Below are positions 43,262 through 56,891 of a stretch of 64,000 bases of DNA, in pieces; the stretch's first letter is position 1; each line of letters opens with the position of its first letter. Origin of the DNA: Limisphaerales bacterium. GTDB taxonomy: Bacteria; Verrucomicrobiota; Verrucomicrobiia; Limisphaerales; SIBE01. Position numbers and translations under genes: made by a program. The DNA is taken from NCBI GenBank assembly GCA_044225505.1, contig JBGAIN010000015.1, positions 1 through 64,000 of the forward strand. The letters are read 5' to 3'. The notes under the pieces were generated by a model that made no database searches, was not told the origin of the DNA, and saw nothing but the letters and a program-made list of their open reading frames with translations.

Positions 43262-43529
43262 TGCAACTCTTGTTAGACGGAGTCACGCTACCAGTTTGCA
43301 GAGGAATGCCAAGAATTCGCTTGAGCGAACATTTGTCGAGTAAGACATAAAGCCTTTAGTCCGCTGGGGGCTATTCTTGCTAATCTTGGCGCTCAAAGCT
43401 ACCATGACTTGTCGGCAATTCGAACCGGTTGAAAGACGCGCTTTGACTACGATGACACCTCGGAGGGTTTCAAAGAGCGGTGTCTCACTGCGGTGGAGTG
43501 GCATTTCAAAAGTCGGCGGACAAAATCCT

Positions 43530-43802
43530 ATGAGCCAAGCAATCATGGATCCGGAGAGTGTGCGGCGTTTCGCAGAGGAGCTGCAGCGATTCAATCGCGA
43601 CGTCGAGGCGAGAATGGCGATCCTACAGGCGCGGTTTGCGGCGCTGGGCGACACCTGGCAAGACCAGGAGCACATCAAATTCTCGGAGGAGTTCAAGCAG
43701 ACGATGAAAGCCCTGAAGAAATTCGTCGAAATCTCTGGTCAACAGACGCCTTACCTCCTGAGAAAGGCGCAGCGGATTGAAGAGTATTTGCATCAACGCT
43801 AG
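43530..43802 (+). CDS. WXG100-family (type VII secretion substrate-like) protein, 90 aa
   Basis: MSQAIMDPESVRRFAEEL…LGDTWQDQEHIKF…RKAQRIEEYL: ~90-aa helix-turn-helix with a central W-x-D turn, upstream of an FtsK-like ATPase. Confidence 0.85.
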   Translation: MSQAIMDPESVRRFAEELQRFNRDVEARMAILQARFAALGDTWQDQEHIKFSEEFKQTMKALKKFVEISGQQTPYLLRKAQRIEEYLHQR

Positions 43803-43805
43803 CCA

Positions 43806-44402
43806 ATGTCCGAAGGTGCCCAAGTCAACTCCGTTGAAGCGATCGGCCAGTTTCGAGCATCGCTTGTCGTTTTTGTTTCGAAAGCCCGGGCCGCTTTGGA
43901 GGAGGCTTTGGACGAACCCCGACGATTGCAGACCTGGCTTGAGAACGATTGCCGGAGTTACTGGCAAAGGGAATTACGACGACGGCAACGCCTACTCGAT
44001 GAGACGCAACAGGAACTTTTTCGAAGCAAGCTCTCAACCCTTGGCGCCCAGACGTCGAATCAAGTCTTGGCCGTCGAACGTGCTAAGATGGCCGTCCGGA
44101 AAGCCGAGCAAAAGAACGAGGCAGTGAAACGGTGGACGCGCGAGTTCGAGAACCGGGCGGCTCCGTTAACGAAGCGAGTGGAGCAATTGCAGACCTACGC
44201 CGAGACGGACCTCGGCAAGGCGGTTGCCTCTCTAGCCGGTGTCATCCGGGTTTTGGAGAGCTATTTGGCGCGTGATGGCGTAGACCCGATGATAGTGGTC
44301 AGCCCAATCTCCTCACAGAGGCCATCGACCGCAACAAATTCACCGAACTCAGAATCCAATGCTAATTTAGAGTCTTCTGCGACGCCTTCTGATCTAACAT
44401 GA
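43806..44402 (+). CDS. Coiled-coil protein, elongated WXG100/LXG-like, with Ser/Thr-rich tail
   Basis: All-helical heptad pattern; its N-terminus parallels the upstream WXG100 protein and it ends its helical part with LESYLARD; 3-nt gap upstream and ATGA overlap downstream. Confidence 0.7.
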   Translation: MSEGAQVNSVEAIGQFRASLVVFVSKARAALEEALDEPRRLQTWLENDCRSYWQRELRRRQRLLDETQQELFRSKLSTLGAQTSNQVLAVERAKMAVRKAEQKNEAVKRWTREFENRAAPLTKRVEQLQTYAETDLGKAVASLAGVIRVLESYLARDGVDPMIVVSPISSQRPSTATNSPNSESNANLESSATPSDLT

Positions 44403-44620
44403 GCCTCAATGCCACACGGGCCCGATTGGAGCAGCTGGCCAAAGAACTCTTCCGGAATTGGGACGAAACCAAAGCGGTCTGGCGCGACTCGCGTGCGCAG
44501 GAGTTCGAGGAGAAGTTCATTCCTGAGCTCAGCACTCGTCTGCGGCAAGCGGAAGAGGCGATGGAGAAGCTCGATCAATTGATTTCTAAAGTCAGGGAGG
44601 ACTGTGACGAGTCGTATTGA
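44399..44620 (+). CDS. Short WXG100-like protein, 73 aa
   Basis: …WDETKAVWRDSRAQEFEEKFI…: W-x-D turn followed by F, as in the 43530 protein; overlaps both neighbours. Confidence 0.72.
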   Translation: MSLNATRARLEQLAKELFRNWDETKAVWRDSRAQEFEEKFIPELSTRLRQAEEAMEKLDQLISKVREDCDESY

Positions 44621-47600
44621 TGTTGCTTCGACGAGGCGCTTGCTGGAGGAATTGCAGGCGACGGTGCGGGAGTTCATCTCCAAGGAGCGGATCCTAAGGG
44701 ATCAGCATCAATCGCGGCGCACGGCGGTGGAGCGCGACCAACGTCTCGCCCAAGACCGGAGACACGCGCAAGCTGCCGAACAGACTCAGGCACTGCAGGC
44801 GGAGCTTGCCCGACGCCAAGCAGCGCTACAGGAAACGATGCGACTTCGGCTAGAACGTGTTGAAAAGGCGGCCAAAGCCAGTCGAAAGCGCTTGCTCGAG
44901 ACCATCGAACAGAAAGAAGGCCGCCTCAAGTATGCCATTCAGAAACGGTCGCTGGAGTCGGAACGACAGTGGGAAAAAGCGTTGTCGGACGCAGCTCAAA
45001 AGCTCGAGCAACTGCAGACCCAGGTCAAGACCTCGCAGGAGGAATATTCTAGGCTGACTGCGGCGGCGCGACGCGCACTCTCGGGTGTTCCCGAGTTTCG
45101 TGCTTGGCTAGGGGCTGGCCCTGCGTGGCCGGAATTTCCTGCTCCCTCGGACGAGTATCAGATCCTCGATGAGCTTGATCAAGCACGGGTCCGTGCCGAT
45201 CAGACGCTTGTTCCTTTGATGCGAAACCCATGGCTCCGTTTGTTTCGCGTGTTGCCTTTGTGGATTTGGATTGTCCTGGGAATTGTGGGATATGTTGTGG
45301 CGGTTTTCGGAATGCCGCATTTGACCCTGAAATTTGTCACGGCTGGCCAGGCGGCTGCGTGGGTGACAGGAGCGGTAAGTTTCGTCATCGGGCTCTATTA
45401 CCTGGGAAAACGCATGACTCGACCAGCGGCGTTGGAGATTGCAGGCACGGTCGCAAAGGCTCTCCAATGGCACGAGCTGGCCCTCAGACTGGCAGAACAG
45501 CGGCGCCAAAATACTGAGGCGCGCCTTCGAGAGGAATCCGAGAGCGACAAGCGCGCTCGACCAGTGGCAGCAAATTCCTCGACGAGGTTCAGCGGGATCG
45601 TACGAGACCAGGAGCGCTTGAGGCGAAACGAACTCGGATTCGTGAGAAGCTGGCGGCACTCCAAACGAAACGATCGAGCGAGTTGGACGCCTGGGCGACC
45701 GGGGAGACTCATAGGTTGCAGGAGCAAAGCGTCATTCAAGAAAAGGACTTAGCGACTTCGTGGCGAGGATCGTTGGCGGGCGTCGACCAAACATTTCAAG
45801 CAGAATTGACCGGCCTGAAGGCGGATTGGGAGGTGTCGCTGAACTCTCTTCGCGCGCAAGTCACGGCCGCGCGCGACTTCGCCGAACCTTTGAGCGCGGC
45901 CTGGACACAAGCGTACGTGCGTAATTGGACCCCGCCGAGCGAATTTGAGCATGCTGTCCCCTTTGGGACGGTAGTTGTCAATTTGCCGGCCCTGGCCGGC
46001 ATCTCGCTCCAGGAGTCAGCCTTGACCGTTCCTGGTGGGCCGGACTGGACTATGCCTTTGATCCTGACTTACCCTGATTCTGGCTCATTGCTCATCGAAA
46101 CTGGAGAATTCGGTGGCCGTGAAGCGGTCTCGGCGCTGAATGCCATTACTTTTCGAATGCTTGGTCTTTTTCCTTCCGGCAAGTTGGGATTGACCTTGGT
46201 CGACCCGACTGGGCTAGGACAGAACTTCGCCGGCCTTATGCATTTGGCTGACTATGAAGAAGGTCAGCTCCACAACCGTATTTTGACGCAACCGGCGCAG
46301 ATTGAAGAGAGGCTCGGAGAGTTGACCGAGCACATGGAAAAAGTGATCCAGATGTATTTGCGCAACGAGTATGCGACGATTGCAGACTATAACGCGCAAG
46401 CTGGGACAGTGGCCGAAAAATATCATCTCGTCGTCATTGCCGGGTTTCCGACACATTTTAGCGAAACGTCCGTGCGCCGCTTGCTGAACATCGCTTCGTC
46501 CGGGGCTCGGTGTGGTGTTTTCACCCTGATTCAGTGGGATCTTCGTGCCGAACTCCCTCATGGGTCGCTTCTCAGCGAGTTGCGTCAAAACAGTGTTCGG
46601 CTCGCGGCGAGGGCACGCGGATTAACGTTGGCGGATCTTCCATTTCCAGGAATTGAATTGCAGGTAGCTCAGCCTCCGCCCCCTGAGATCGCCATTGATT
46701 TCCTGCGGAGAGTTGGTGCGAATCTGAAGAGCGCCGCCCGTGTGGAGCTGCCATTCTCGAACATTAGCCCCTCACAGACGGAGCGGTGGACGTTAGATGC
46801 GGCGGAAGAACTACGGGTCCCAATTGGGCGTACTGGGGCGACGAAGCGACAGTACTTGGTGCTTGGCAAAGGGACGCGTCAACACGTTTTGATTGCCGGC
46901 AAGACAGGCTCTGGCAAGTCCACATTGTTTCACGTGTTAATTACAAACCTAGCGCTCTGGTATGCGCCCGACCAAGTCGAGTTTTACCTGGTTGACTTCA
47001 AGAAGGGCGTTGAGTTCAAAGCGTATGCCAACCGCAAATTGCCGCATGCCCGAGTTGTGGCAATCGAAAGTGATCGGGAATTTGCTTTAAGTGTTCTCCA
47101 ACGCGTGGATGACGAATTACGGCTTCGGGGTGACATGTTTCGCAAACTCCAGGTCCAGGACTTGGAGGGCTACCGACGATCGAGTTCACGTCAGGACCTC
47201 CCGCGGCTCCTCTTAATGATCGACGAGTTCCAAGAGTTTTTCACCGAAGAAGATCGCATTTCCCAAACGGCTGCCGTGCTTTTGGATCGGATTGTTCGCC
47301 AGGGGCGTGCGTTCGGCGTTCATGTTTTGCTGGGGTCGCAGACATTGGGCGGCGCCTATTCGCTAGCACGGGCGACGATGGGACAAATGGTGGTCCGCAT
47401 TGCTCTGCAGTGTAATGAAGCGGATGCCTACCTGATTATGGACGAAGGAAATGCGGCGCCACGACTTCTCTCACGTCCTGGGGAGGGGATCTACAACGAT
47501 ATGGCAGGCGCCGTGGAAGGTAACAGTCCATTTCAAACGGCGTGGTTGTCCGATGAAGCCCGGGACGGTTACCTCGCGGAATTGCGAGGCCTGGCCGAGG

Positions 47601-48484
47601 AGCGATTGACCAGCGTGCCGCAGCCCTTTGTCTTTGAAGGGAACGCGCCGGCTGTGCTCACAGAGAATAGAGAACTCATGGAAAGGGCAGGTCGCCTACC
47701 AATGGCCGCACCACCCTTTGCGCGAATTTGGCTGGGAGCTCCAAATTCGATCAAAGGCCCAACGGAAGTGCAATTCCCTCGACAGAGCGGCAGTCATTTG
47801 CTGGTGGTCGGTCAGTCCGAGGATGCGGCATTCGGAATACCGGCACTGGCGCTGCTGAGCTTGTCGGCACAATACCCTGCGGCGGCGCTCGAGCTCATCC
47901 TTGTTGAGAGCACCGCTCCTGGGTCGATGATGCGCGGGTTTCTCGATCGAGTGACGGGACTGCTGGTGCATCCCGTCCTTCGACCGAAGCGCACCGAGTT
48001 ACCCGTAATCTTAAATCGATTGGTCGATGAACTGTCCCGGAGAACGGGCGACGAAAACCCAGAAGCCGTTCGTTCCACTTTTCTTATTATCACTAACCTG
48101 CAAGAGCTAAAGACGCTCCGTCCTGAGGATGAGTTTGGCTACGTTAGTGCCGACCCTGGGGCAGCCCTGAGCCCAGCTGCGGCGCTGATGCGGTTGATCG
48201 CGGAAGGACCCGGGAAAGGTATCCATGTGATTGCTAGTATCGACACTTACAATGATGTCAGTCGGTTTTTAGGGCGAAAGGGCCTTAGTGAATTTCAAAA
48301 TCGCGTTCTGTTTCAGATGAGCGCGAGCGACTCTGCCAGCCTAATCGATACCCCGGAGGCGGGCAGACTCGGCCTGCATCGGGCGCTGCTCTACCAGGAG
48401 CGGGAAGGCTACCTGGAAAAGTTTCGCCCTTACACGCTGCACGGAGATTGGGCAAGCCAATGGACCGGCGGTAGAGGCTCGTGA
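44604..48484 (+). CDS. Membrane-anchored FtsK/SpoIIIE (EccC/EssC-like) ATPase, ~1290 aa if joined; appears as ORFs 44604-45752 and 45683-48484 because of indels near 45550-45575
   Basis: The N-terminal ORF has a coiled coil and two TM helices. The C-terminal ORF has HVLIAGKTGSGKS (Walker A), FYLVDFKKGVEF, LLMIDEFQ (Walker B) and RQGRAFGVHVLLGSQ. The downstream frame is open and helical from about 45572 (KFLDEVQRD…). Confidence 0.85.
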
Positions 48485-48552: not shown

Positions 48553-50469
48553 TCAAAGTGACAGCAAGAACTCGATCAAGTCGTCGACCTCTTCGGCTTT
48601 TAAGTGTGAGGTCTGTCCATGTTTATCGTCTGCATTGCGACGGATCAGTACCTCCCGTAGTGTCGTGGCAGATCCGTCATGCAAATAAGGGGACGTCCGC
48701 CAAAGTTCGAACAAAGTTGGCGTGTCAAACTTGGCAGCACTGCTCTCCGAAGAGGAGACTCCCCAGATAGCCCGGTACGGAGCCGATGTTCCAACGTCGT
48801 AATCCGTCAAATCGGTCCAAAGCGGCGGCGCATGACATCCTGAGCACCCGACTCGCGTGCTGAAGAACAGGCCTTTGCCGCGTGCCGCCGCGGCGGAGAG
48901 TTGACCATCGACGAGATGCGGGCTTGGCATAGGATGGAGAGAGGTCAAATAGGCGTCGATCGCTGCCGGCACAGCATCCGGTTGATGAGTAAAAAGGATA
49001 TGGTGAACCCCGGCACGAACTGCTACCTGAGCATTGGACCGGATTCCTAAAGCCATTGCTGGCGCGGTTTGGTGTGCCGAGACCAGACTCTTCGTATTCT
49101 TCGGATTGCCAACGCCATCGTTCATCAAGTCCCAGTTAAGGGCATCGGTGCGCGCGTCGGCGTCGTGGCAACTGGCGCAGCTTTGCCAACCTTGTGCACA
49201 AAGACGTCCATCATTGAAAAGCATTTCGCCCATGCGCTCTTGGGTAACTGCCGAGGAGCTCCAGATTGGGATTATATCAATCTCGGCGTTTGGGTCCGTC
49301 AGATCCACTCGGCAGAGATGATCAGAGAAGTAGTTGGCAACGTAGACCGTTGATCCGCAGATCGCGAGGCCTCGTGGGCCCTCTCCGGGAAGTGCGATTC
49401 GGCGCGTCACTCGCAAGGGGCGGATTGGCGTAGAAGGAAGCGGTTCATCCATCTGGGCGTAGCGGCTCAGCTCAAGGCTCGCGAAGTTCCAGTGCTCTCC
49501 CTCACCTGGGAGTTGGACCACGCTGAGTTCGTGTGTGCCGGCATGTGAGACCATGAGATGCCGGCCATCAGGGGTCCATGCAACGGCCCAAGGGTTGGCC
49601 GCACCTCGGCAGGTTTGATCAAGGAGGACGGTGCCAAGAACGCTCCATCGATTCAGATCAAGGAAGGTTAGGGCGTTGGCATTGATCCGTCCCAGATCGA
49701 CGCTTGTTGTCGGAAGCCAGAACATCGACCGTAAATGCGTGACTGCCGCAAACCGCCCGTCCGGAGAGACGGCGATGCCACGCCCAAGGCTGCTTCCCAT
49801 GGGCAGACGAATCGTGTGGATCAATTGGCGGCGAGACGTGTCAATGACGCTAACTCCGATCGCAGCCTCGACTTGGTTGGCCGGGCCACGATGCAAGTGA
49901 TTTACGACGAGAAGGTGCTTCCCACTCGGCGTAAGCGCGGTGGCGACCGGTTCGCGTTCCACTGGAATACGCACGGGCGCGTCGTCGGTCGACAAGCGGA
50001 TGATAGCCACGTCGTTGTCGAAGCGGTTGCAGACGTAGAGCGTCTGGCCGTCGGGGCTCAACGCAGGCGCCATGGTCGTGTGTCCAGTCCTCCATTCCCG
50101 GGTGACCGTGCCATGGGTTGTGTCAATTTCGCATACTCGACTTGGACTGTTCGCGCAAGTGACGTAAAGCCGAGAACCGTCCACCGAGGTGGCCAAGCCG
50201 GAGGGGTTTGGCGGCACGCGGAGGCGCGTTACGATCTGCTCCATCCCGAGATCTACCGCCGCAACGTGGGCGGCAGTCGCACATGCGACATACGCGGTCA
50301 TTCCGTTTGGACTAATGCTGACCGCGATCGGGGAGCCGTAGGTAGGTTCGAAAGGTTGACTATATTGCGCCGGGGGGAACCCGGGTTCCATGATTGGAGT
50401 GGGCGGCGTTGCTCGCCCAAGGAGGCAAGCGATCAGTGTTCCCAAAAGGACCCAAATGCATTTTTTCAT
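48553..50469 (-). CDS. Secreted YVTN beta-propeller + di-heme cytochrome c peroxidase/MauG-like protein
   Basis: Signal peptide MKKCIWVLLGTLIACLLG, SPDG-type propeller repeats, two CxxCH motifs (CASCH, CSGCH), FDTPTL…SPYLHDGS. Confidence 0.85.
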   Translation of the reverse strand: MKKCIWVLLGTLIACLLGRATPPTPIMEPGFPPAQYSQPFEPTYGSPIAVSISPNGMTAYVACATAAHVAAVDLGMEQIVTRLRVPPNPSGLATSVDGSRLYVTCANSPSRVCEIDTTHGTVTREWRTGHTTMAPALSPDGQTLYVCNRFDNDVAIIRLSTDDAPVRIPVEREPVATALTPSGKHLLVVNHLHRGPANQVEAAIGVSVIDTSRRQLIHTIRLPMGSSLGRGIAVSPDGRFAAVTHLRSMFWLPTTSVDLGRINANALTFLDLNRWSVLGTVLLDQTCRGAANPWAVAWTPDGRHLMVSHAGTHELSVVQLPGEGEHWNFASLELSRYAQMDEPLPSTPIRPLRVTRRIALPGEGPRGLAICGSTVYVANYFSDHLCRVDLTDPNAEIDIIPIWSSSAVTQERMGEMLFNDGRLCAQGWQSCASCHDADARTDALNWDLMNDGVGNPKNTKSLVSAHQTAPAMALGIRSNAQVAVRAGVHHILFTHQPDAVPAAIDAYLTSLHPMPSPHLVDGQLSAAAARGKGLFFSTRVGCSGCHAPPLWTDLTDYDVGTSAPYRAIWGVSSSESSAAKFDTPTLFELWRTSPYLHDGSATTLREVLIRRNADDKHGQTSHLKAEEVDDLIEFLLSL

Positions 50470-52618
50470 AAGCGGCTTTGTCCTTCTACCTTTCATGCGG
50501 AATTTTCCGGCGGGGAAGCTCAAGAGCCGTCGTGACTTTCCAAGCGCATTCCGTCCTGTTAGAAACTGTCAAATGCGACGAATGCCCGTTTTCGCGCGAT
50601 TCCATGGCCCGGACCAATGTCCATCGGTGGACCGTCGCCTCGATCCGAGAGGGAACGTGCTCCTGGTTTGGTTCACTTTGCTTTGTTTGTGCCACAGGGC
50701 GCACGCACCGTTCGGGCAGCCCGCGGGAGTGGACCCAATTCCAAATGGGGTGGCGGCCGGCGAAGTCACTGCCAGTTCCGCGATTCTTTGGACACGAACC
50801 TTGAACGTTGGACCCGTGGTTTTCACCGTCTCGCGAGACGCGGATTTTGGGACGACGAACTCGGTCTGGGGCGCCGACGTGGCCGATGCGTCAATTCCGG
50901 TGAAGGTGGCACTAACCGACTTGAACGATGCCACGACGTATTACTATCGAGTCACCGACGTCTCAGGCGCTTCCGCGGTGGGTCGGTTTCGGACCGCAGC
51001 AAAACCTGGCAAGTTTCATGGATTGCGTTTTGGCGTCTCGGGCGATTGGCACGGCGAGTTAGCGCCTTATCCCTCGGTAGCAAACGCCGTAAAGCGAGAC
51101 CTACAGTTCTTCGCTGCCTTGGGCGATACCATCTATGCCGATTATCCATCACCCGCGGTGCCGAAAGTCCCGATCACCGCGGTGGAAGAGTTCCGGGCCA
51201 AGTATAACGAGGTCTATTCCGAGAAGTTCGGGAATAACGGTCTGACAAATCTCCGGGGGTCGACAGCCTTTTTCGCGGTCATTGATGATCACGAGGTGAT
51301 CAATGATTTCGCGGGCGGCGCCCTGGCGCAAAGCGATTCCCGATTCGACACCAACGGAGTCTTTATCAATGAAACCAAGCTCTACCGTAGCGCGCTGCAA
51401 GCGTTCGAAGAATATCATCCTTTGGTAGTCGAGCCTTACCATACCCCTGAGGATCTTCGCACGCATCTTAAACCCAAACTCTACCGCACCCAGGTCTATG
51501 GCGACGACGCTGCGATCTTTCTTTTGGATACGCGCAGTTTTCGGGATAAGGAACTGCCTGGCGTATTGAACCCGTTTGACACGGCTGGCGCCCGGCGGTT
51601 TTCCGCTACCGCGTTCGATCTTGACCCGGACACTGGCGAAGCAGGGCCGCGACGGACTTTGCTGGGTGCCGCGCAGTTGTCAGACTTAAAGGCTGATCTC
51701 CTCCGAGCCAAACAAGCGGGCGTCCTTTGGAAATTCATTTTACTCGGTGAACCGATCCAGAACTTGGGGTTTGCCGACGCGAGCGATCGATTTGAAGGGT
51801 ATGCGCGTGAACGAACGGAACTTCTCCAGTTCCTGAACGACAACGGCATTCGCAATGTCGTGTTTGTCAGTGCGGACATTCACGGAACCGTCGTGAACAA
51901 TGTGAGCTATCAAAAGGCGCCTGAGCAACCGTTGATTCCGACAGGATCCTTTGAGGTCGTAACGGGGGCCGTGGCACACGACAAACCATTCGGTCCTACC
52001 ACCTTCGACGTCGCCGCGGAGATCAAGGTCTTGCCAGGGCTAACGCTTCTCGGTGGGTTGCTCCGTTACGTCGAAGTTCCAGATCGAGCCACGTTCGATG
52101 GGCTACCGCTTGCGGAACGTGACCGACTCTTCCAGCGAATCATGGATGTGCAGCTAGACGCATTAGACTTGGATACGACGGGATTGGAAGGGTCGGACGT
52201 GCAAGCGACGCTTCTTCAAGGGAACTACGTGGCTGCCCATACCTACGGCTGGACAGAATTCGAAATTGACCGGGATACCCATTGGCTCAGCGTCACGACC
52301 TACGGCATAACTCCTTACTCAGCCGAACAGGTGGAACCTGCAATCTTGCAGCGAGTCCCTGAGATCGTTTCTCGATTCATAGTCCTTCCTCAAAGCGAAG
52401 CTCCGGGCTTTCCGGCTCTGCGCGCGGCGCACGCGGGTAAACAGATAGAAATCCGGTGGCCGGTTTGGGGAGAACAATTTGTGTTGCAGAGCTGGACGGG
52501 GCTAAGCGACGCAACGTGGACTGATATGGCGGATGAACCGTCTCGCCAGGCGGACGATTATGTCGTGACCCTTCAATCCGGGAGTGATGCTCTGTTTTTT
52601 CGCCTACGCCATCGCTGA
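50390..52618 (+). CDS. phoD: Alkaline phosphatase D (PhoD)-family protein with C-terminal extension; true start probably between 50573 and 50657
   Basis: GVAAGEVTASSAILWTR, GRFRTA, LGDTIYAD, DDHEVINDF, LDTRSFRD, RTLLGAAQL, DRFEGYARER, SADIHG. The ORF-track start overlaps the divergent gene. Confidence 0.85.
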   Translation: MIGVGGVARPRRQAISVPKRTQMHFFISGFVLLPFMRNFPAGKLKSRRDFPSAFRPVRNCQMRRMPVFARFHGPDQCPSVDRRLDPRGNVLLVWFTLLCLCHRAHAPFGQPAGVDPIPNGVAAGEVTASSAILWTRTLNVGPVVFTVSRDADFGTTNSVWGADVADASIPVKVALTDLNDATTYYYRVTDVSGASAVGRFRTAAKPGKFHGLRFGVSGDWHGELAPYPSVANAVKRDLQFFAALGDTIYADYPSPAVPKVPITAVEEFRAKYNEVYSEKFGNNGLTNLRGSTAFFAVIDDHEVINDFAGGALAQSDSRFDTNGVFINETKLYRSALQAFEEYHPLVVEPYHTPEDLRTHLKPKLYRTQVYGDDAAIFLLDTRSFRDKELPGVLNPFDTAGARRFSATAFDLDPDTGEAGPRRTLLGAAQLSDLKADLLRAKQAGVLWKFILLGEPIQNLGFADASDRFEGYARERTELLQFLNDNGIRNVVFVSADIHGTVVNNVSYQKAPEQPLIPTGSFEVVTGAVAHDKPFGPTTFDVAAEIKVLPGLTLLGGLLRYVEVPDRATFDGLPLAERDRLFQRIMDVQLDALDLDTTGLEGSDVQATLLQGNYVAAHTYGWTEFEIDRDTHWLSVTTYGITPYSAEQVEPAILQRVPEIVSRFIVLPQSEAPGFPALRAAHAGKQIEIRWPVWGEQFVLQSWTGLSDATWTDMADEPSRQADDYVVTLQSGSDALFFRLRHR

Positions 52619-52696: not shown

Positions 52697-55264
52697 TCAG
52701 TCCGGTTCCGCCGCCATGCCTTGGGGATCGTTCATGGGCCTTGGCAACCCTTGGGCTTGCGTCGAATTTAGTAACGCGCTCTTTGCTTCCTCTGGCAGAG
52801 ACGATCCATGAATCCAGGCGCGGGCGGCGTTTTCGTCAGATTCCAGCCAACGCTGAGCGACGGATTGCGCGGCGCCATTCCGAATGGTCGTGTCCGCGAC
52901 GGATGCAATCCACTTCGCGGCTGTCGCAGGATCTGTCGCAGCCAAACTCTGGGCGTAAGCGCCGACGGCTGTATCCCGCGACGTGCCAGGTGCCAATTGG
53001 TTGAGCCATTCCGCCGTTCCGACCACGTCTTGCTCGCCCCAATGCCGTGCCAATGATTCGAGAGCGTTTTCACGCAACGGCCCGTCTGGGAAGTTGGATG
53101 CCCAAGCCGCTGCCGTCTTCGGATCTGTGTTCATCCAGCCGGAAAGGACGGAGAGAACTGCTCCTTGCTGTTGTTCGTTCGCCGGCAATAGTGCGATCAG
53201 GTTTGCGGCTTGCTGCGGTGCAATGTTGGCCAATTGAGTGGCCAGGCTGGTTACGGCCCGATGGCGTGTCTCGCCTTCTGGCAATGCGGTAGCCCAGGCA
53301 CTGGCCGCGGCGGGGTCTTCGGATGCCCATTGGCTTGCAACACTAGCGACGAAATCGTTCCGAGTGGCGGTCGGTAGACTCTCGGCAAACGTTAGAGCGT
53401 TACGCGGATCTGCTTGCGCCCAGGGAACTGCCAGATTGGCCAGCACCATCCGTTTATCCGCGCCCTCCGGCATCTCTCGCATCCATCGCAATGCGGCGTC
53501 CAGATCGGTATTGGCCCACTGCGACGCGACCTGTCCCAGAAACTCATGGCGCATTGTTCCGGCAGGCAGTTGCGAGGCAAACTCCAAACCTTTTTGCGGA
53601 TCCGACGCGACGATCTGGGTACCGACAGCACGGAGGGCCTCTCGTTGGGTCTGCCCGGCAGGAAGGGATCGAGCCCAGTCTGCGGCAGCGGTGGGGTCCG
53701 ATTGTGCCCAACGTGCCGCGACGGCCGCGGCGGCGGTGTTTCGATGCGGTCCTGGTTCCAGTTCACTGACCATGGTGGCGGCCTCTTGTGGATTATTCAT
53801 GGCCCAGGTGGACACGACCTGCTGCAGAGCCTCAGAACGGGTGTTTCCAGGAGGCAACGTTTTCGCCCAAGCAACCGCTTCCGCGGGGTTCTCGGAGGCC
53901 CATTGCTGCGCCACGTTCACCGCGAGCCACGGTTGGGAAGTGGCAAGTCCGCTCCGTTCAAGAAGCTTTAGCCCTGCTTTGGGATCATTCTGTTGCACAC
54001 TTTGCACAATCGATTGCCACGCCGCATTGCGGGCCTGCCCAGGCGGAAGGGATTCGACCCAGGCCACTGCCGCCGTGGGATCCGTTCCAGCCCAAGACGA
54101 GGCTAGCGACGAGATCATAAACTGCCGAGATGGGCCGCTCGGCAGATTGTTGACGAAAGCGACGACGCCGTCAGGGTCCGTTTGCGCCCAGAGATACGCG
54201 ACGCTCAGGATCGCCGCTTGTTTTTCAACGCCCTCCGGCATCGATTTCATGAAGTTGACTGCTCCCGCGACATCCGTTTGAGCCCAACGACCAACGGTTT
54301 CACGCATCATTTCGGTCCGGGCGGTTCCAGTCGGCATGGCCAGCGCCATGGCCGCGGCTGCTTTCGGATCAACATTCGCCATGCCTTCCAGCAACCCGCT
54401 TAAGGCCGTGCTGCGTCGGGATTCAGGCAGGGTTTCCATCCAGGCGCGCGCGGCCTCGAGATCCGTTTCGGCCCAGCGCGCCGCGATGTTGCGGAGCGAC
54501 TGCTGCGCTTCGTTCCAAGTCAGAACTTCATTGGCCTTGGCGGCGGCAGTGGCAGGGTCGACGGAAGCCCAGCGATCAAGCAACCAGCTCCGGAGCCCAC
54601 GCCGATCGACGGGCGACAATAGTTGTTCGGACAAAGCCCAGGCCTGCTCTGGCCGGGTTTGCGCGACGGCGGTGACGAGCGCGCGGTGCGCCTCGGCACG
54701 TTGAGTGGTGGGGAGTTGCTGGCTCCAGGCAACGGCGGCCGCTGTGTCCTGAGCGGCCCACGAGGTCAGCACCGAGGCGATCGCCTGCTGGCGCTGGGGT
54801 GAACTTGGCAAGCTCTGCGCGTGTTGCATGGCGGCGGCGGCATCTGTTTCTCCCCAACGTTCCAACAGCGCCCGCATAAACCCGGACTGGAGCTCCGAGT
54901 TCCGGAGGCTTGGGATTAGGCCCCAGGCTTGCGGAAAGTCCGAGGGGCGTAGCTGGCGCGTGATCCGCGCCAATGCTTCGAAACGGCGGCTCACATCGGT
55001 TTCGCCGCTTAGTGTCCGCAGAGCGGATTCTACTTCTGACAATGTCAGCGAAGCGGTGGCGGTAATTTTGGCGCCGCGGGCGGCTTCACTGGCATCGCGC
55101 CTCGCGCGTGGGGCGTGGGAAGCATTTGTCCCGAAGGGGTCTTTTTCAAGGCTTGAGCTGGCGGCGGTCGTGGAGCGGCGGGGCAAGAGAACTTGTCGGT
55201 CTAAGACAACGCCTGCTGCGATCCCCACGCTTAGAAATACCACCGAGACTGTTGCCGCCTTCAT
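52697..55264 (-). CDS. Membrane-anchored alpha-solenoid repeat protein (WAxxDPxAAxxWxxxLPxG repeats)
   Basis: N-terminal hydrophobic anchor MKAATVSVVFLSVGIAAGVVL followed by roughly 18-19 tandem ~37-38-aa repeats. Confidence 0.8.
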   Translation of the reverse strand: MKAATVSVVFLSVGIAAGVVLDRQVLLPRRSTTAASSSLEKDPFGTNASHAPRARRDASEAARGAKITATASLTLSEVESALRTLSGETDVSRRFEALARITRQLRPSDFPQAWGLIPSLRNSELQSGFMRALLERWGETDAAAAMQHAQSLPSSPQRQQAIASVLTSWAAQDTAAAVAWSQQLPTTQRAEAHRALVTAVAQTRPEQAWALSEQLLSPVDRRGLRSWLLDRWASVDPATAAAKANEVLTWNEAQQSLRNIAARWAETDLEAARAWMETLPESRRSTALSGLLEGMANVDPKAAAAMALAMPTGTARTEMMRETVGRWAQTDVAGAVNFMKSMPEGVEKQAAILSVAYLWAQTDPDGVVAFVNNLPSGPSRQFMISSLASSWAGTDPTAAVAWVESLPPGQARNAAWQSIVQSVQQNDPKAGLKLLERSGLATSQPWLAVNVAQQWASENPAEAVAWAKTLPPGNTRSEALQQVVSTWAMNNPQEAATMVSELEPGPHRNTAAAAVAARWAQSDPTAAADWARSLPAGQTQREALRAVGTQIVASDPQKGLEFASQLPAGTMRHEFLGQVASQWANTDLDAALRWMREMPEGADKRMVLANLAVPWAQADPRNALTFAESLPTATRNDFVASVASQWASEDPAAASAWATALPEGETRHRAVTSLATQLANIAPQQAANLIALLPANEQQQGAVLSVLSGWMNTDPKTAAAWASNFPDGPLRENALESLARHWGEQDVVGTAEWLNQLAPGTSRDTAVGAYAQSLAATDPATAAKWIASVADTTIRNGAAQSVAQRWLESDENAARAWIHGSSLPEEAKSALLNSTQAQGLPRPMNDPQGMAAEPD

Positions 55265-55289
55265 ACGCCTAACCTGCCACTTCTCTCTG

Positions 55290-56891
55290 TTACGTTGACT
55301 TTCCGAGCTGCCACGAGGAATCGACTGCACTTGGACTGCCCGCTGGGGCTGGGTCCATCGGCACCGAGGTCTGATGACGTAGTTGCCGTTTCGGAGTTGA
55401 TCCCGAATGGGCAACCGACACCCCCCCGAATCCTGCCGGGAGGTGCGGGCGCAAAAAGACCGGCCGATCCGAACGTCCACCGCGTTGGTAATCGCGCCAA
55501 AGTATTTCGGCGGCCCGTCGGACGTCGACGCCGCACTCTTCCGTTAAATATCGGAAGAACAGTTCCGTGAGCACGACGAGGGCGATTCCGTGATTTCTCC
55601 CCAAACGCTCGTAAAGAAACTCGCTCCAGCCCATGAATGCTGCAAAGGGGGAATTGCCGCGGTGCCATAGCAACGGGGTGCTTTCTACAAAGTTGCCACT
55701 ATTCGCAACCAAGTCCCAGTGACGTGCGAATCGACGGAGCCGCTGCATTTGTTCGAAAGAGATCAGCCGGTTTTGCAGAATTTCGTAAGGCGCCTGCGGA
55801 CTGTAAACCATGGCCCATTCGACGTCGTGCCGCACGATGGGGGTGCCGCGCAAACGTTTCAGAATCCCCACCTGAATCTCTTGCGGGCGGAGCGCGATTA
55901 ATTGGTCGAACCCGGCCCCAAAACTCTCCACGGTTTCACCGGGCAACCCAATGATCAGGTCGGCGTGGATATGCACCCCGGTCTCGTCGCGCAAGAACCG
56001 GAAGTTGTCGGCTAACTTGGCGTAGTTCTGACGCCGCCGAATGCGTTCTGCGACCTCGACATTGAAGGTCTGGATTCCTACTTCAAATTGCAGGGTGCCC
56101 GCTGGAAATCGTGAAATCCGAGCCCGCAACCCTTCCGGCAGCCGGTCTGGGATCATCTCGAAATGGAGAAACAAACCTGGACAGTTGCGCTCGAGAAAAA
56201 AGTCGAGGATGGTCTGGCTGGTCGCCAAATTCAGGTTGAACGTCCGATCGACGAACTTGAACTGTCGCAACCCGCGGCGGAGCAGCTGTTCAAGACTTGC
56301 CAAAAACTCTGGCAGCGGAAACTGTCGCACGGGAATCTCGAGTGACGAGAGGCAAAACTCGCACGTAAACGGACAACCACGCGACGCTTCCACATAGACT
56401 ACGCGATGCTGAAGATCGCGATCCTCGTAAAGGGCGTAGGGCTGCTGGACATGGCCCAGCTCCGGAACCGGCGCCACTTGCACTTTTGCCGCGGGCTTTG
56501 TTCCGTTGAGCAGCGCGTCACAAAGGGCGGCGAACTGCAAATCCGCTTCCCCGGTGATCACGTAGTCTGCCAATTGGACTATCGGCTGCGATTCCCATTC
56601 GTAACTCACTTCGGGGCCGCCTAAAACAATCGTAACTCCGGGCGCCAAGCGTTTGAGCAATTGCACCACTTCCAAACTCAGTTGGGCGTTCCAGATGTAC
56701 ACGCCAATCCCGATGATTCGCGGGTGGTGCACGAGCAAAGCCTCCACGATATCGACCGCCCGCTGTTGCAGATCGAATTCGACGAGCTGCGACCGGGCGC
56801 GGAGCGCACCGAGATTCGCCTGTAAATAGCGCAACCCAAATGCCGCGTGAATATACTTCGCATTAAAGGTTGTCAGAAGGATGTCCGCCAT
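55290..56891 (-). CDS. B12-binding radical SAM protein with DUF4080
   Basis: [36 protein letters not shown] (CxxxCxxC), [31 protein letters not shown]. Confidence 0.9.

What the first reader, a model, noticed from the sequence alone, without database searches (positions are those of the whole stretch)
43530..48484. Minimal type VII secretion-like module (3 WXG100-like proteins + one membrane FtsK ATPase) in a diderm, probably verrucomicrobial, genome
Seen: four tightly coupled genes (3-nt gap, ATGA overlap, 17-nt overlap). They encode a 90-aa WXG100-like protein, a 198-aa coiled-coil protein, a 73-aa WXG100-like protein and a coiled-coil + 2TM + FtsK ATPase. The same window encodes outer-membrane barrels and Wza, so the host is Gram-negative-type. 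Established: characterised T7SS occur in Actinobacteria (EccB/C/D/E, MycP) and Firmicutes (EsaA, EssA/B/C). WXG100/FtsK genes have been predicted in other phyla, but I know of no functional study in PVC bacteria. Inference: no EccB/D, EssA/B, EsaA, toxin or immunity gene flanks the locus, so this may be a stripped-down third type of WXG100 system. It could export helical bundles into the periplasm, or do something other than secretion, such as membrane remodelling or defence.
Basis: partly seen in the sequence, partly recalled or inferred. Interest (0 to 1): 0.88.

Follow-up and report, generated by a model that had tools for sequence, protein, structure and literature searches.

The report
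Cargo-free minimal type VII-like export module
This is a conserved four-gene set in Verrucomicrobia that likely encodes a stripped-down type VII-like protein exporter; the motor and its small partner were already noted in print, but the second gene is an empty version of a carrier that bears interchangeable toxin-like domains in related bacteria, which makes the untested export idea directly testable.

Summary
The four genes and their spacings are real. The ATPase gene is split by a frameshift in the window, but contigs from two independent studies restore the frame (1295 aa), so this is likely an assembly error. A is a WXG100 protein closest to H. pylori HP0062. C is probably a shortened WXG100-like partner. 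B is not WXG100 but a long two-helix hairpin. D has coiled coils, two membrane helices and three FtsK-type modules, only the middle one with Walker motifs. That ATPase plus a solo WXG protein was noted for verrucomicrobia and planctomycetes in 2012, and this scan found the module before in five findings on other genomes. It occurs in 160 of 251 sampled genomes of the order, nearly always once, without other T7SS parts in this genome. New here: in a related lineage the B domain carries swapped C-terminal domains (Tox-GHH, CdiA-C with an immunity gene, metallopeptidase, ParB-like; 24 of 44 loci). B is therefore likely an LXG-like carrier, left empty in PVC bacteria. Most likely function: ATP-driven export of helical bundles across the inner membrane (untested). 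Main rival: an intracellular defence or stress switch.

The parts
43530..43802 (+). Gene A: 90-aa WXG100 (EsxA/HP0062-type) protein, WQD in place of WxG
   Evidence: PF06013 E 8.6e-8, 32.8 bits over cut-off 27.3; best PDB hit HP0062 3fx7 E 1.6e-5; 80% mean column identity in 63 homologues; 69 of 70 are exactly 90 aa
43806..44402 (+). Gene B: about 155-aa antiparallel two-helix hairpin plus a low-complexity tail; cargo-free form of a domain that carries swapped C-terminal domains elsewhere
   Evidence: AlphaFold2 model of residues 1-160, H5-76 and H81-157, pLDDT 90.5; tails rich in P/A/S/E/G in 149 representatives; B profile hits the N-terminus of 24 long proteins in the same module, E 4e-6 to 2e-33
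44399..44620 (+). Gene C: 73-aa probable WXG100-like partner of B (WRD motif, invariant W21, W28, D30, F36, C69)
   Evidence: Same W-x-D-x5-F spacing as A and HP0062; hhalign to A only 5% probability; 5 of 62 members hit PF06013 weakly; ATGA overlap with B in 55 of 70 loci
44604..45590 (+). Gene D, 5' part: about 200-aa coiled coil, two-helix membrane hairpin (about aa 213-268), start of a second coiled coil
   Evidence: Profile of 71 homologues covers aa 2-318, E 7e-46; two hydrophobic segments in 63 of 71 homologues
45545..45603 (+). Frame break in D, likely an assembly error
   Evidence: Four indels, net +7 nt, in contigs of runs X2 and X3; X1 contigs have a hole at 45542-45608; frame open with placeholders
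45591..48484 (+). Gene D, 3' part: coiled-coil stalk, degenerate FtsK-type module, active module (Walker A near 46898, Walker B near 47222), degenerate third module
   Evidence: PF01580 E 2.8e-31; Walker A G/K and Walker B D/E invariant in 96 sequences, absent from modules 1 and 3; module 3 vs 2 hhalign 98.7%, module 1 vs 3 96.1%; TIGR03924 EccCa 112 bits vs FtsK 21.6

Best explanation
The four genes likely encode a minimal type VII-like exporter, in which the membrane-anchored ATPase D is predicted to form an EccC/EssC-like ring and would push small helical bundles made of A, B and C across the inner membrane into the periplasm. Shown: gene coupling, the HP0062-type WXG100 protein A, the hairpin fold model of B, the two-TM three-module ATPase with one intact active site, and that the B domain is fused to many different C-terminal domains in a related lineage. 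Inferred: A acts as the EsxA-like core substrate (dimer, as reported for HP0062); C binds B as a Lap/PE-like targeting partner; B is the LXG/PPE-like carrier; the dead modules read the substrate and the middle module powers transport. In this genome and nearly all PVC loci seen B has no cargo, so the exported bundle itself would be the product, with an envelope role rather than killing. No outer-membrane step is encoded.
For: D is closest to EccC/EssC/YukB: TIGR03924/5/8 at 112/98/85 bits vs FtsK 21.6; PDB profile hits EccC 1e-54, YukB 7e-39, FtsK 3e-17. Two-TM hairpin kept in 63 of 71 homologues. WXG100 plus EccC/EssC-type ATPase are the two parts common to all T7SS (PMC10765036 passage). A-B-C-D in order in 68 of 72 loci; D in 160 and B in 159 of the same 251 genomes. 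B-C ATGA coupling in 55 of 70. In 24 of 44 distinct, complete metagenome loci with B, it is 250 aa or longer, with tails in 11 BLAST groups: Tox-GHH (L166, L180), CdiA_C (L152), DUF6782 metallopeptidase (L172), Imm33-like (L198), all over Pfam cut-off; L152's next gene is a SitI3 immunity protein over cut-off. This repeats the LXG + two small helical partners layout of T7SSb (PMC10801868 abstract). Control: the B profile finds only B in 117,135 ORFs of the own genome, next E 0.03.
Against: No export was shown, and reviews say Gram-negative WXG100/FtsK loci are not confirmed as secretion systems. EccB, EccD, YukD, YukC and EsaA, essential in characterised systems, were not found. Three Prosthecobacter-labelled D proteins have no TM segment yet keep A, B and C. 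In 14 of 24 long-B loci C follows B within 74 nt, leaving no slot for an immunity gene. The acidic position of the C-terminal HxxxD/E pattern (PMC3935865) is not present in A (read). B has no specific fold match to LXG or PPE. No cargo-bearing B was found in the window's genome.
Confidence: 0.55

Rival explanations
1. The module is an intracellular defence or stress switch. D holds or remodels the A/B/C bundle at the inner face of the membrane and, on a trigger such as phage infection, releases B with its nuclease or protease tail inside the same cell. Cargo-free PVC copies would signal or scaffold instead.
For: 14 of 24 long-B loci lack a slot for an immunity gene. TM-less D occurs. Distant relatives sit in TerY-P/CoCoNuT defence clusters (L105, L111-L113; PMC11090510 passages) or beside TerD (L103). 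No outer-membrane conduit is encoded.
Against: No defence or other neighbour recurs in more than 7 of 81 loci. Single copy and all-or-none presence by family (f80 8/8, f84 7/7, f72 0/7, f77 0/8) is unlike most defence systems (my knowledge). PADLOC gives only P-loop and coiled-coil matches. Real toxin-immunity pairs exist (L152).
Confidence: 0.25
2. A, B and C are a membrane-shaping or repair polymer (PspA/Vipp1/ESCRT-III-like) that D assembles and recycles, linked to the complex envelopes of PVC bacteria.
For: B is a long hairpin; the cargo-free form is concentrated in PVC-labelled loci; A is very conserved.
Against: Vipp1 and Vps24 appear only among background coiled-coil matches (E 0.42; Z 9.9 within a flat list). 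B has no hydrophobic segment. The same domain carries toxin-like tails elsewhere. Only 16 of 401 sampled genomes of the phylum have D.
Confidence: 0.1
3. D is a DNA translocase or conjugative coupling protein and the small genes are accessory.
For: FtsK/SpoIIIE family membership; weak hits to FtsK, TcpA-type coupling protein structures and PADLOC SspH/mad8.
Against: Much stronger match to EccC/EssC; three tandem modules; no relaxase or T4SS neighbour recurs; the genome has its own FtsK on contig C62; no match for A in viral contigs.
Confidence: 0.04
4. The locus is a decaying pseudogene in this strain.
For: D is frameshifted in the window.
Against: Near-identical contigs from two studies have the frame intact, and the possible source run has a hole exactly there.
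Confidence: 0.06

Closest known systems
[quoted passage not shown] 2012, PMC3482391, Table 1 note 6)
   Same: Same ATPase design, a solo WXG protein, and verrucomicrobia and planctomycetes are named.
   Different: [quoted passage not shown] Here the PVC form looks mostly vertically kept, and long-B loci include one whose A clusters with Ca. Electronema and one in a same-order genome (L120).
H. pylori HP0062/HP0066 and TerY-P / Type III-A CoCoNuT WXG100-EssC-like cassettes (PMC4978471, PMC11090510, PMC3397514)
   Same: A is closest to HP0062 and 1e-25 to the Caballeronia WXG100. Order WXG, coiled-coil-nuclease, small protein, second WXG-like gene, ATPase parallels A-B-C-D.
   Different: Those ATPases lack TMs, are about 28-36% identical, form a separate branch, sit in defence clusters and carry a nuclease. 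My B profile does not detect their coiled coil (E 0.3).
T7SSb LXG-Lap1-Lap2 and T7SSa PE-PPE / EsxAB substrates with EssC/EccC
   Same: Long helical carrier with variable C-terminal toxin, two small helical partners, TM-anchored multi-module FtsK-type ATPase.
   Different: No LXG hit, no EssB, EsaA, YukD, EccB or EccD; no FHA hit in D; one active module; all EccC/EssC scores below the family cut-offs; diderm LPS host.
T7SSc-T7SSj (Garrett et al. 2024, PMC11217815)
   Same: Share the WXG100 protein and the ATPase.
   Different: Described only in Bacillota and Actinomycetota, mostly with a ubiquitin-like TsxB and extra membrane parts (abstract and passages); none found here.

Membership tests
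Solo-WXG / middle-active YueA-like ATPase module (Zhang 2012) | WXG-type small protein beside the ATPase | tested here: met
   PF06013 over cut-off, only copy in the genome
Solo-WXG / middle-active YueA-like ATPase module (Zhang 2012) | Three HerA/FtsK modules, only the middle with Walker A/B | tested here: met
   motifs invariant in module 2 of 96 sequences, absent in 1 and 3; hhalign 3 vs 2 98.7%, 1 vs 3 96.1%, 1 vs 2 13%
Solo-WXG / middle-active YueA-like ATPase module (Zhang 2012) | Mobile element behaviour | tested here: inconclusive
   Flanks vary but single copy, presence by family and a tree that groups same-genus and named-family loci suggest mostly vertical descent; no marker-gene tree was compared
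WXG100 (PF06013) | Gene A: about 90-100 aa with central WxG-type motif | tested here: met
   32.8 bits over cut-off 27.3; WQD variant as WRD in HP0062; below TIGR03930 cut-off
WXG100 (PF06013) | Gene C is a member | tested here: inconclusive
   5 of 62 weak hits, best 0.0019; shared W-x-D-x5-F; hhalign 5%; not folded
WXG100 (PF06013) | Gene B is a member (about 100 aa, WxG at the turn) | tested here: not met
   155-aa hairpin, no WxG at the turn, no Pfam hit
LXG / PPE carrier domains | Sequence or fold match of B to LXG or PPE | tested here: inconclusive
   No PF04740 match in the genome; fold searches give only generic coiled coils
LXG / PPE carrier domains | Conserved N-terminal helical domain fused to variable toxin domains, next to small helical partners | tested here: met
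   In relatives, not in the window: 24 of 44 loci
T7SSa (ESX) | EccB and EccD present | tested here: not met
   0 matches in the 95%-complete genome; controls rang in Corynebacterium
T7SSa (ESX) | EccE, MycP | not tested
   No search run
T7SSb (Ess) | EssB/YukC, EsaA, EsaB/YukD present | tested here: not met
   0 matches; controls rang in Bacillus subtilis. EssA not searched
T7SS (any) | TM-anchored EccC/EssC-type ATPase | tested here: inconclusive
   Best matches are EccC/EssC and two TMs are present, but scores are below equivalog cut-offs
T7SS (any) | ATP-dependent export of WXG100 bundles across the membrane | not testable with these tools
   Needs fractionation with a Walker A mutant

The most novel reading that the evidence does not exclude
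A, B, C and D define a complete four-protein type VII exporter that works in LPS diderms, with B as a new LXG-like carrier family for polymorphic toxins; PVC bacteria keep a cargo-free version vertically and use the exported helical bundle itself as a periplasmic or envelope component.
Probability: 0.3. Interest if true: 0.85.

Novelty: new variant of a known kind. Interest (0 to 1): 0.52.

Why it matters
Reviews still list Gram-negative WXG100/FtsK loci as unconfirmed secretion systems (PMC10765036). This work narrows the unit to four genes and points to the likely substrate: B, which comes with natural cargo in some lineages and none in PVC bacteria. That gives a ready reporter for export and a way to ask which parts a type VII machine really needs. 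It would also add a carrier family and a set of uncatalogued toxin-like domains. The core observation itself is in print, so the surprise is moderate.

Tried and rejected
A structure of D could not be obtained, so whether module 1 equals the EccC DUF domain is open; the profile search against PDB showed no such match. Fold searches with B gave only generic coiled coils. RNA: two contigs of run X19 cover 43427-43847, gene A only; one study, found by that gene, so not used as evidence. Promoter and terminator scans were at chance level. Longer B homologues: the word search found none among 8000 candidates and the L120 N-terminus found only itself; the fusions were found through gene neighbourhoods instead. 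Orphan cargo-bearing B in the order: 7 of 159 genomes had a second match; one is L120 (G526); the other six plus two weak single matches were unrelated coiled-coil proteins by eye, and all 10 long open frames checked were short B with upstream sequence. Only 15 candidates per genome were scored, so remote copies may be missed. Viral contigs: none for A. Phage hits were other FtsK-like proteins, none covering 80%. PF28217, precomputed on 2 of 33 B homologues, is not in the local Pfam, so its name is unknown. Anantharaman 2012 is not held; I know it only through citing passages. Paper searches for a functional study found none; subscription papers and supplements were not seen and may describe B.
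Full report
Observation. D is split in the window into 44604-45752 and 45683-48484. A profile of 71 full-length homologues follows the first frame to aa 318 and the second from about 45590. Contigs of runs X2 and X3, from two studies, carry four indels at 45545-45603, net +7 nt, and the possible source run X1 has a hole at 45542-45608. With placeholders the frame is open for 1295 codons. I read this as an assembly error. The neighbours are unrelated: an alpha-galactosidase upstream and a beta-propeller cytochrome c downstream, both on the other strand. The genome has LpxC; most close loci are labelled Verrucomicrobiota; a same-order genome's protein is labelled Limisphaera.

Anatomy. A passes PF06013 and is closest to H. 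pylori HP0062; 69 of 70 homologues are exactly 90 aa. C shares the W-x-D-x5-F spacing with A and HP0062, but the profile evidence is weak. B models as one long antiparallel hairpin, pLDDT 90.5, with no specific structural match, and ends in a low-complexity tail. D has a 200-aa coiled coil, two hydrophobic segments in 63 of 71 homologues (3 have three, 2 one, 3 none), a second coiled coil and three FtsK-type modules. Only the middle one keeps Walker A and B in 96 sequences. D scores best to EccC/EssC/YukB, below their cut-offs, and far less to FtsK. EccB, EccD, YukD, YukC, LXG and EsaA were not found in the genome, with controls ringing. A, B, C and D are single copy.

Distribution. Of 80 best genome loci, 72 had 1.5 kb or more upstream of D and 68 show A-B-C-D in order. 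One of the four misses, L077, has C, and L001 is complete but fell under the flank cut. No real neighbour recurs in more than 7 of 81 loci. D is in 160 of 251 genomes of the order, 17 of 41 relatives and 16 of 401 of the phylum; B is in 159 of the same 251, two of them weak false hits. Presence runs by family. Gene-A clusters of short-B loci hold Gemmataceae, Phycisphaerales and Lentisphaera members, and the nearest large Atlas cluster for B has 2908 members, mostly Planctomycetota where known. In two genomes A-B-C lie on another contig than D.

The new piece. A same-order genome, G526, has a second locus (L120): D, two WXG100-like genes, a 317-aa protein whose N-terminus matches B (E 9e-11) and whose tail has an HExxH motif, a 150-aa gene, then C. 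The tail resembles SprT-like and Tox-MPTase4 clusters (0.92-0.93, a lead). A metagenome scan with that D gave 80 loci; 48 hold B. After dropping 3 duplicates and 1 cut copy, 24 of 44 have B of 250 aa or more and 20 have short B. The alignment keeps the B signature across both kinds. The 24 tails fall into 11 BLAST groups. Of 23 long or near-long B scanned, five pass a Pfam cut-off: Tox-GHH twice, CdiA_C, DUF6782 and Imm33-like. Seven loci share a ParB-like motif with weak support, four have CxxC repeats, one has a weak Cas4-like hit. The gene after the CdiA_C protein is a SitI3 immunity protein, and YbjN-type genes follow both Tox-GHH proteins. Against a plain toxin-export reading, 14 of the 24 have no room for an immunity gene between B and C. 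Two of 10 long-B clusters had taxon names: Caldilinea and Ca. Electronema. Trees put the window with its same-genus locus inside a Verrucomicrobiota clade (SH-aLRT 99, 100), within a mostly short-B group (97, one long member); the mostly long-B group has 85 (quick search, 45 of 180 rows; FastTree of all 180). Gain or loss of cargo is not resolved.

Mechanism. Most likely (0.55) D works like EccC/EssC: a ring anchored by TM hairpins that takes a helical bundle of B with C, helped by A, across the inner membrane. Ring formation, binding and export are inferred from EccC/EssC and from the LXG-Lap and PE-PPE pattern (PMC10801868, abstract and introduction seen), not shown. In this genome B has no cargo, so the bundle would end in the periplasm. 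The main rival (0.25) is an intracellular defence or stress switch, favoured by TM-less D variants, missing immunity genes and TerY-P/CoCoNuT contexts of distant relatives. Membrane remodelling (0.1), a true pseudogene (0.06) and DNA translocation (0.04) are weaker.

What is known. [quoted passage not shown] Bell 2024 (PMC11090510; passages) describes TM-less versions with two WXG100 proteins and a coiled-coil nuclease. Uchiyama 2016 (PMC4978471; passages) calls HP0062/HP0066 a minimal T7SS; PMC3397514 (passages) reports the HP0062 dimer. Boardman 2023 (PMC10765036; passages) says Gram-negative loci are unconfirmed. Garrett 2024 (PMC11217815; passages) covers Gram-positive variants only. Poulsen 2014 (PMC3935865; passages) gives the C-terminal pattern. 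PMC13492133 passages added nothing. No supplements were read; those of Zhang 2012 and Bell 2024 may list B-type proteins. Eight paper searches found no functional study and no description of B as a carrier. Five earlier findings of this scan report the same module on other genomes; I consulted them after reaching my reading, and a word search for the carrier idea returned nothing.

Verdict. A real member of a module known from comparative genomics, not a member of T7SSa or T7SSb. The membrane-anchored, cargo-free PVC form and the carrier role of B make it a new variant. Interest 0.52.

Noticed in passing
L138:3130-7114, L166:5345-7122, L180:5212-6639, L183:4453-5475, L145:6544-7539: In several long-B loci the N-terminal coiled-coil part of D appears (by eye) as separate, sometimes repeated genes, fused to WD40 or FGE-sulfatase domains, beside a TM-less ATPase.
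   Followed up: partly
window 44597-44620 and homologues: C ends in D-C-E; the Cys codon is TGT in 56 of 69 loci, where it can supply the GTG start of D, but TGC in 13, so the Cys is partly kept for its own sake.
   Followed up: partly
L065, L078, L080: Prosthecobacter-labelled D proteins lack both TM segments but keep A, B and C.
   Followed up: partly
L002:2376-8231, L003:6432-8285, L013:7624-8276, L020:3063-3966: Unrelated genes, by eye a transposase, an HNH/PIN pair and a HigBA-like toxin-antitoxin pair, have inserted at the C-D or B-C junction without breaking the genes.
   Followed up: no
L103:6330-11760: Rhodococcus plasmid carries a TerD-fused D, a B-like protein with a ParB-like tail, a C-like and an A-like gene next to ter genes.
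   Followed up: partly
L121:8949-16137, L123, L122, L104: A more distant type (TM-less ATPase, two WXG-like genes, long coiled-coil protein) occurs as a second locus in some genomes of the order and on a Deinococcus plasmid.
   Followed up: no
L135:1677-3837: JAB and ThiF (ubiquitin-like system) genes lie directly upstream of D in one long-B locus.
   Followed up: no
window 52697-55480 (-): 927-aa protein of many short helical repeats with an N-terminal anchor; only weak Pfam hits.
   Followed up: no
window 48553-50523 (-): Beta-propeller fused to a di-haem cytochrome c peroxidase-like domain, converging on D.
   Followed up: no
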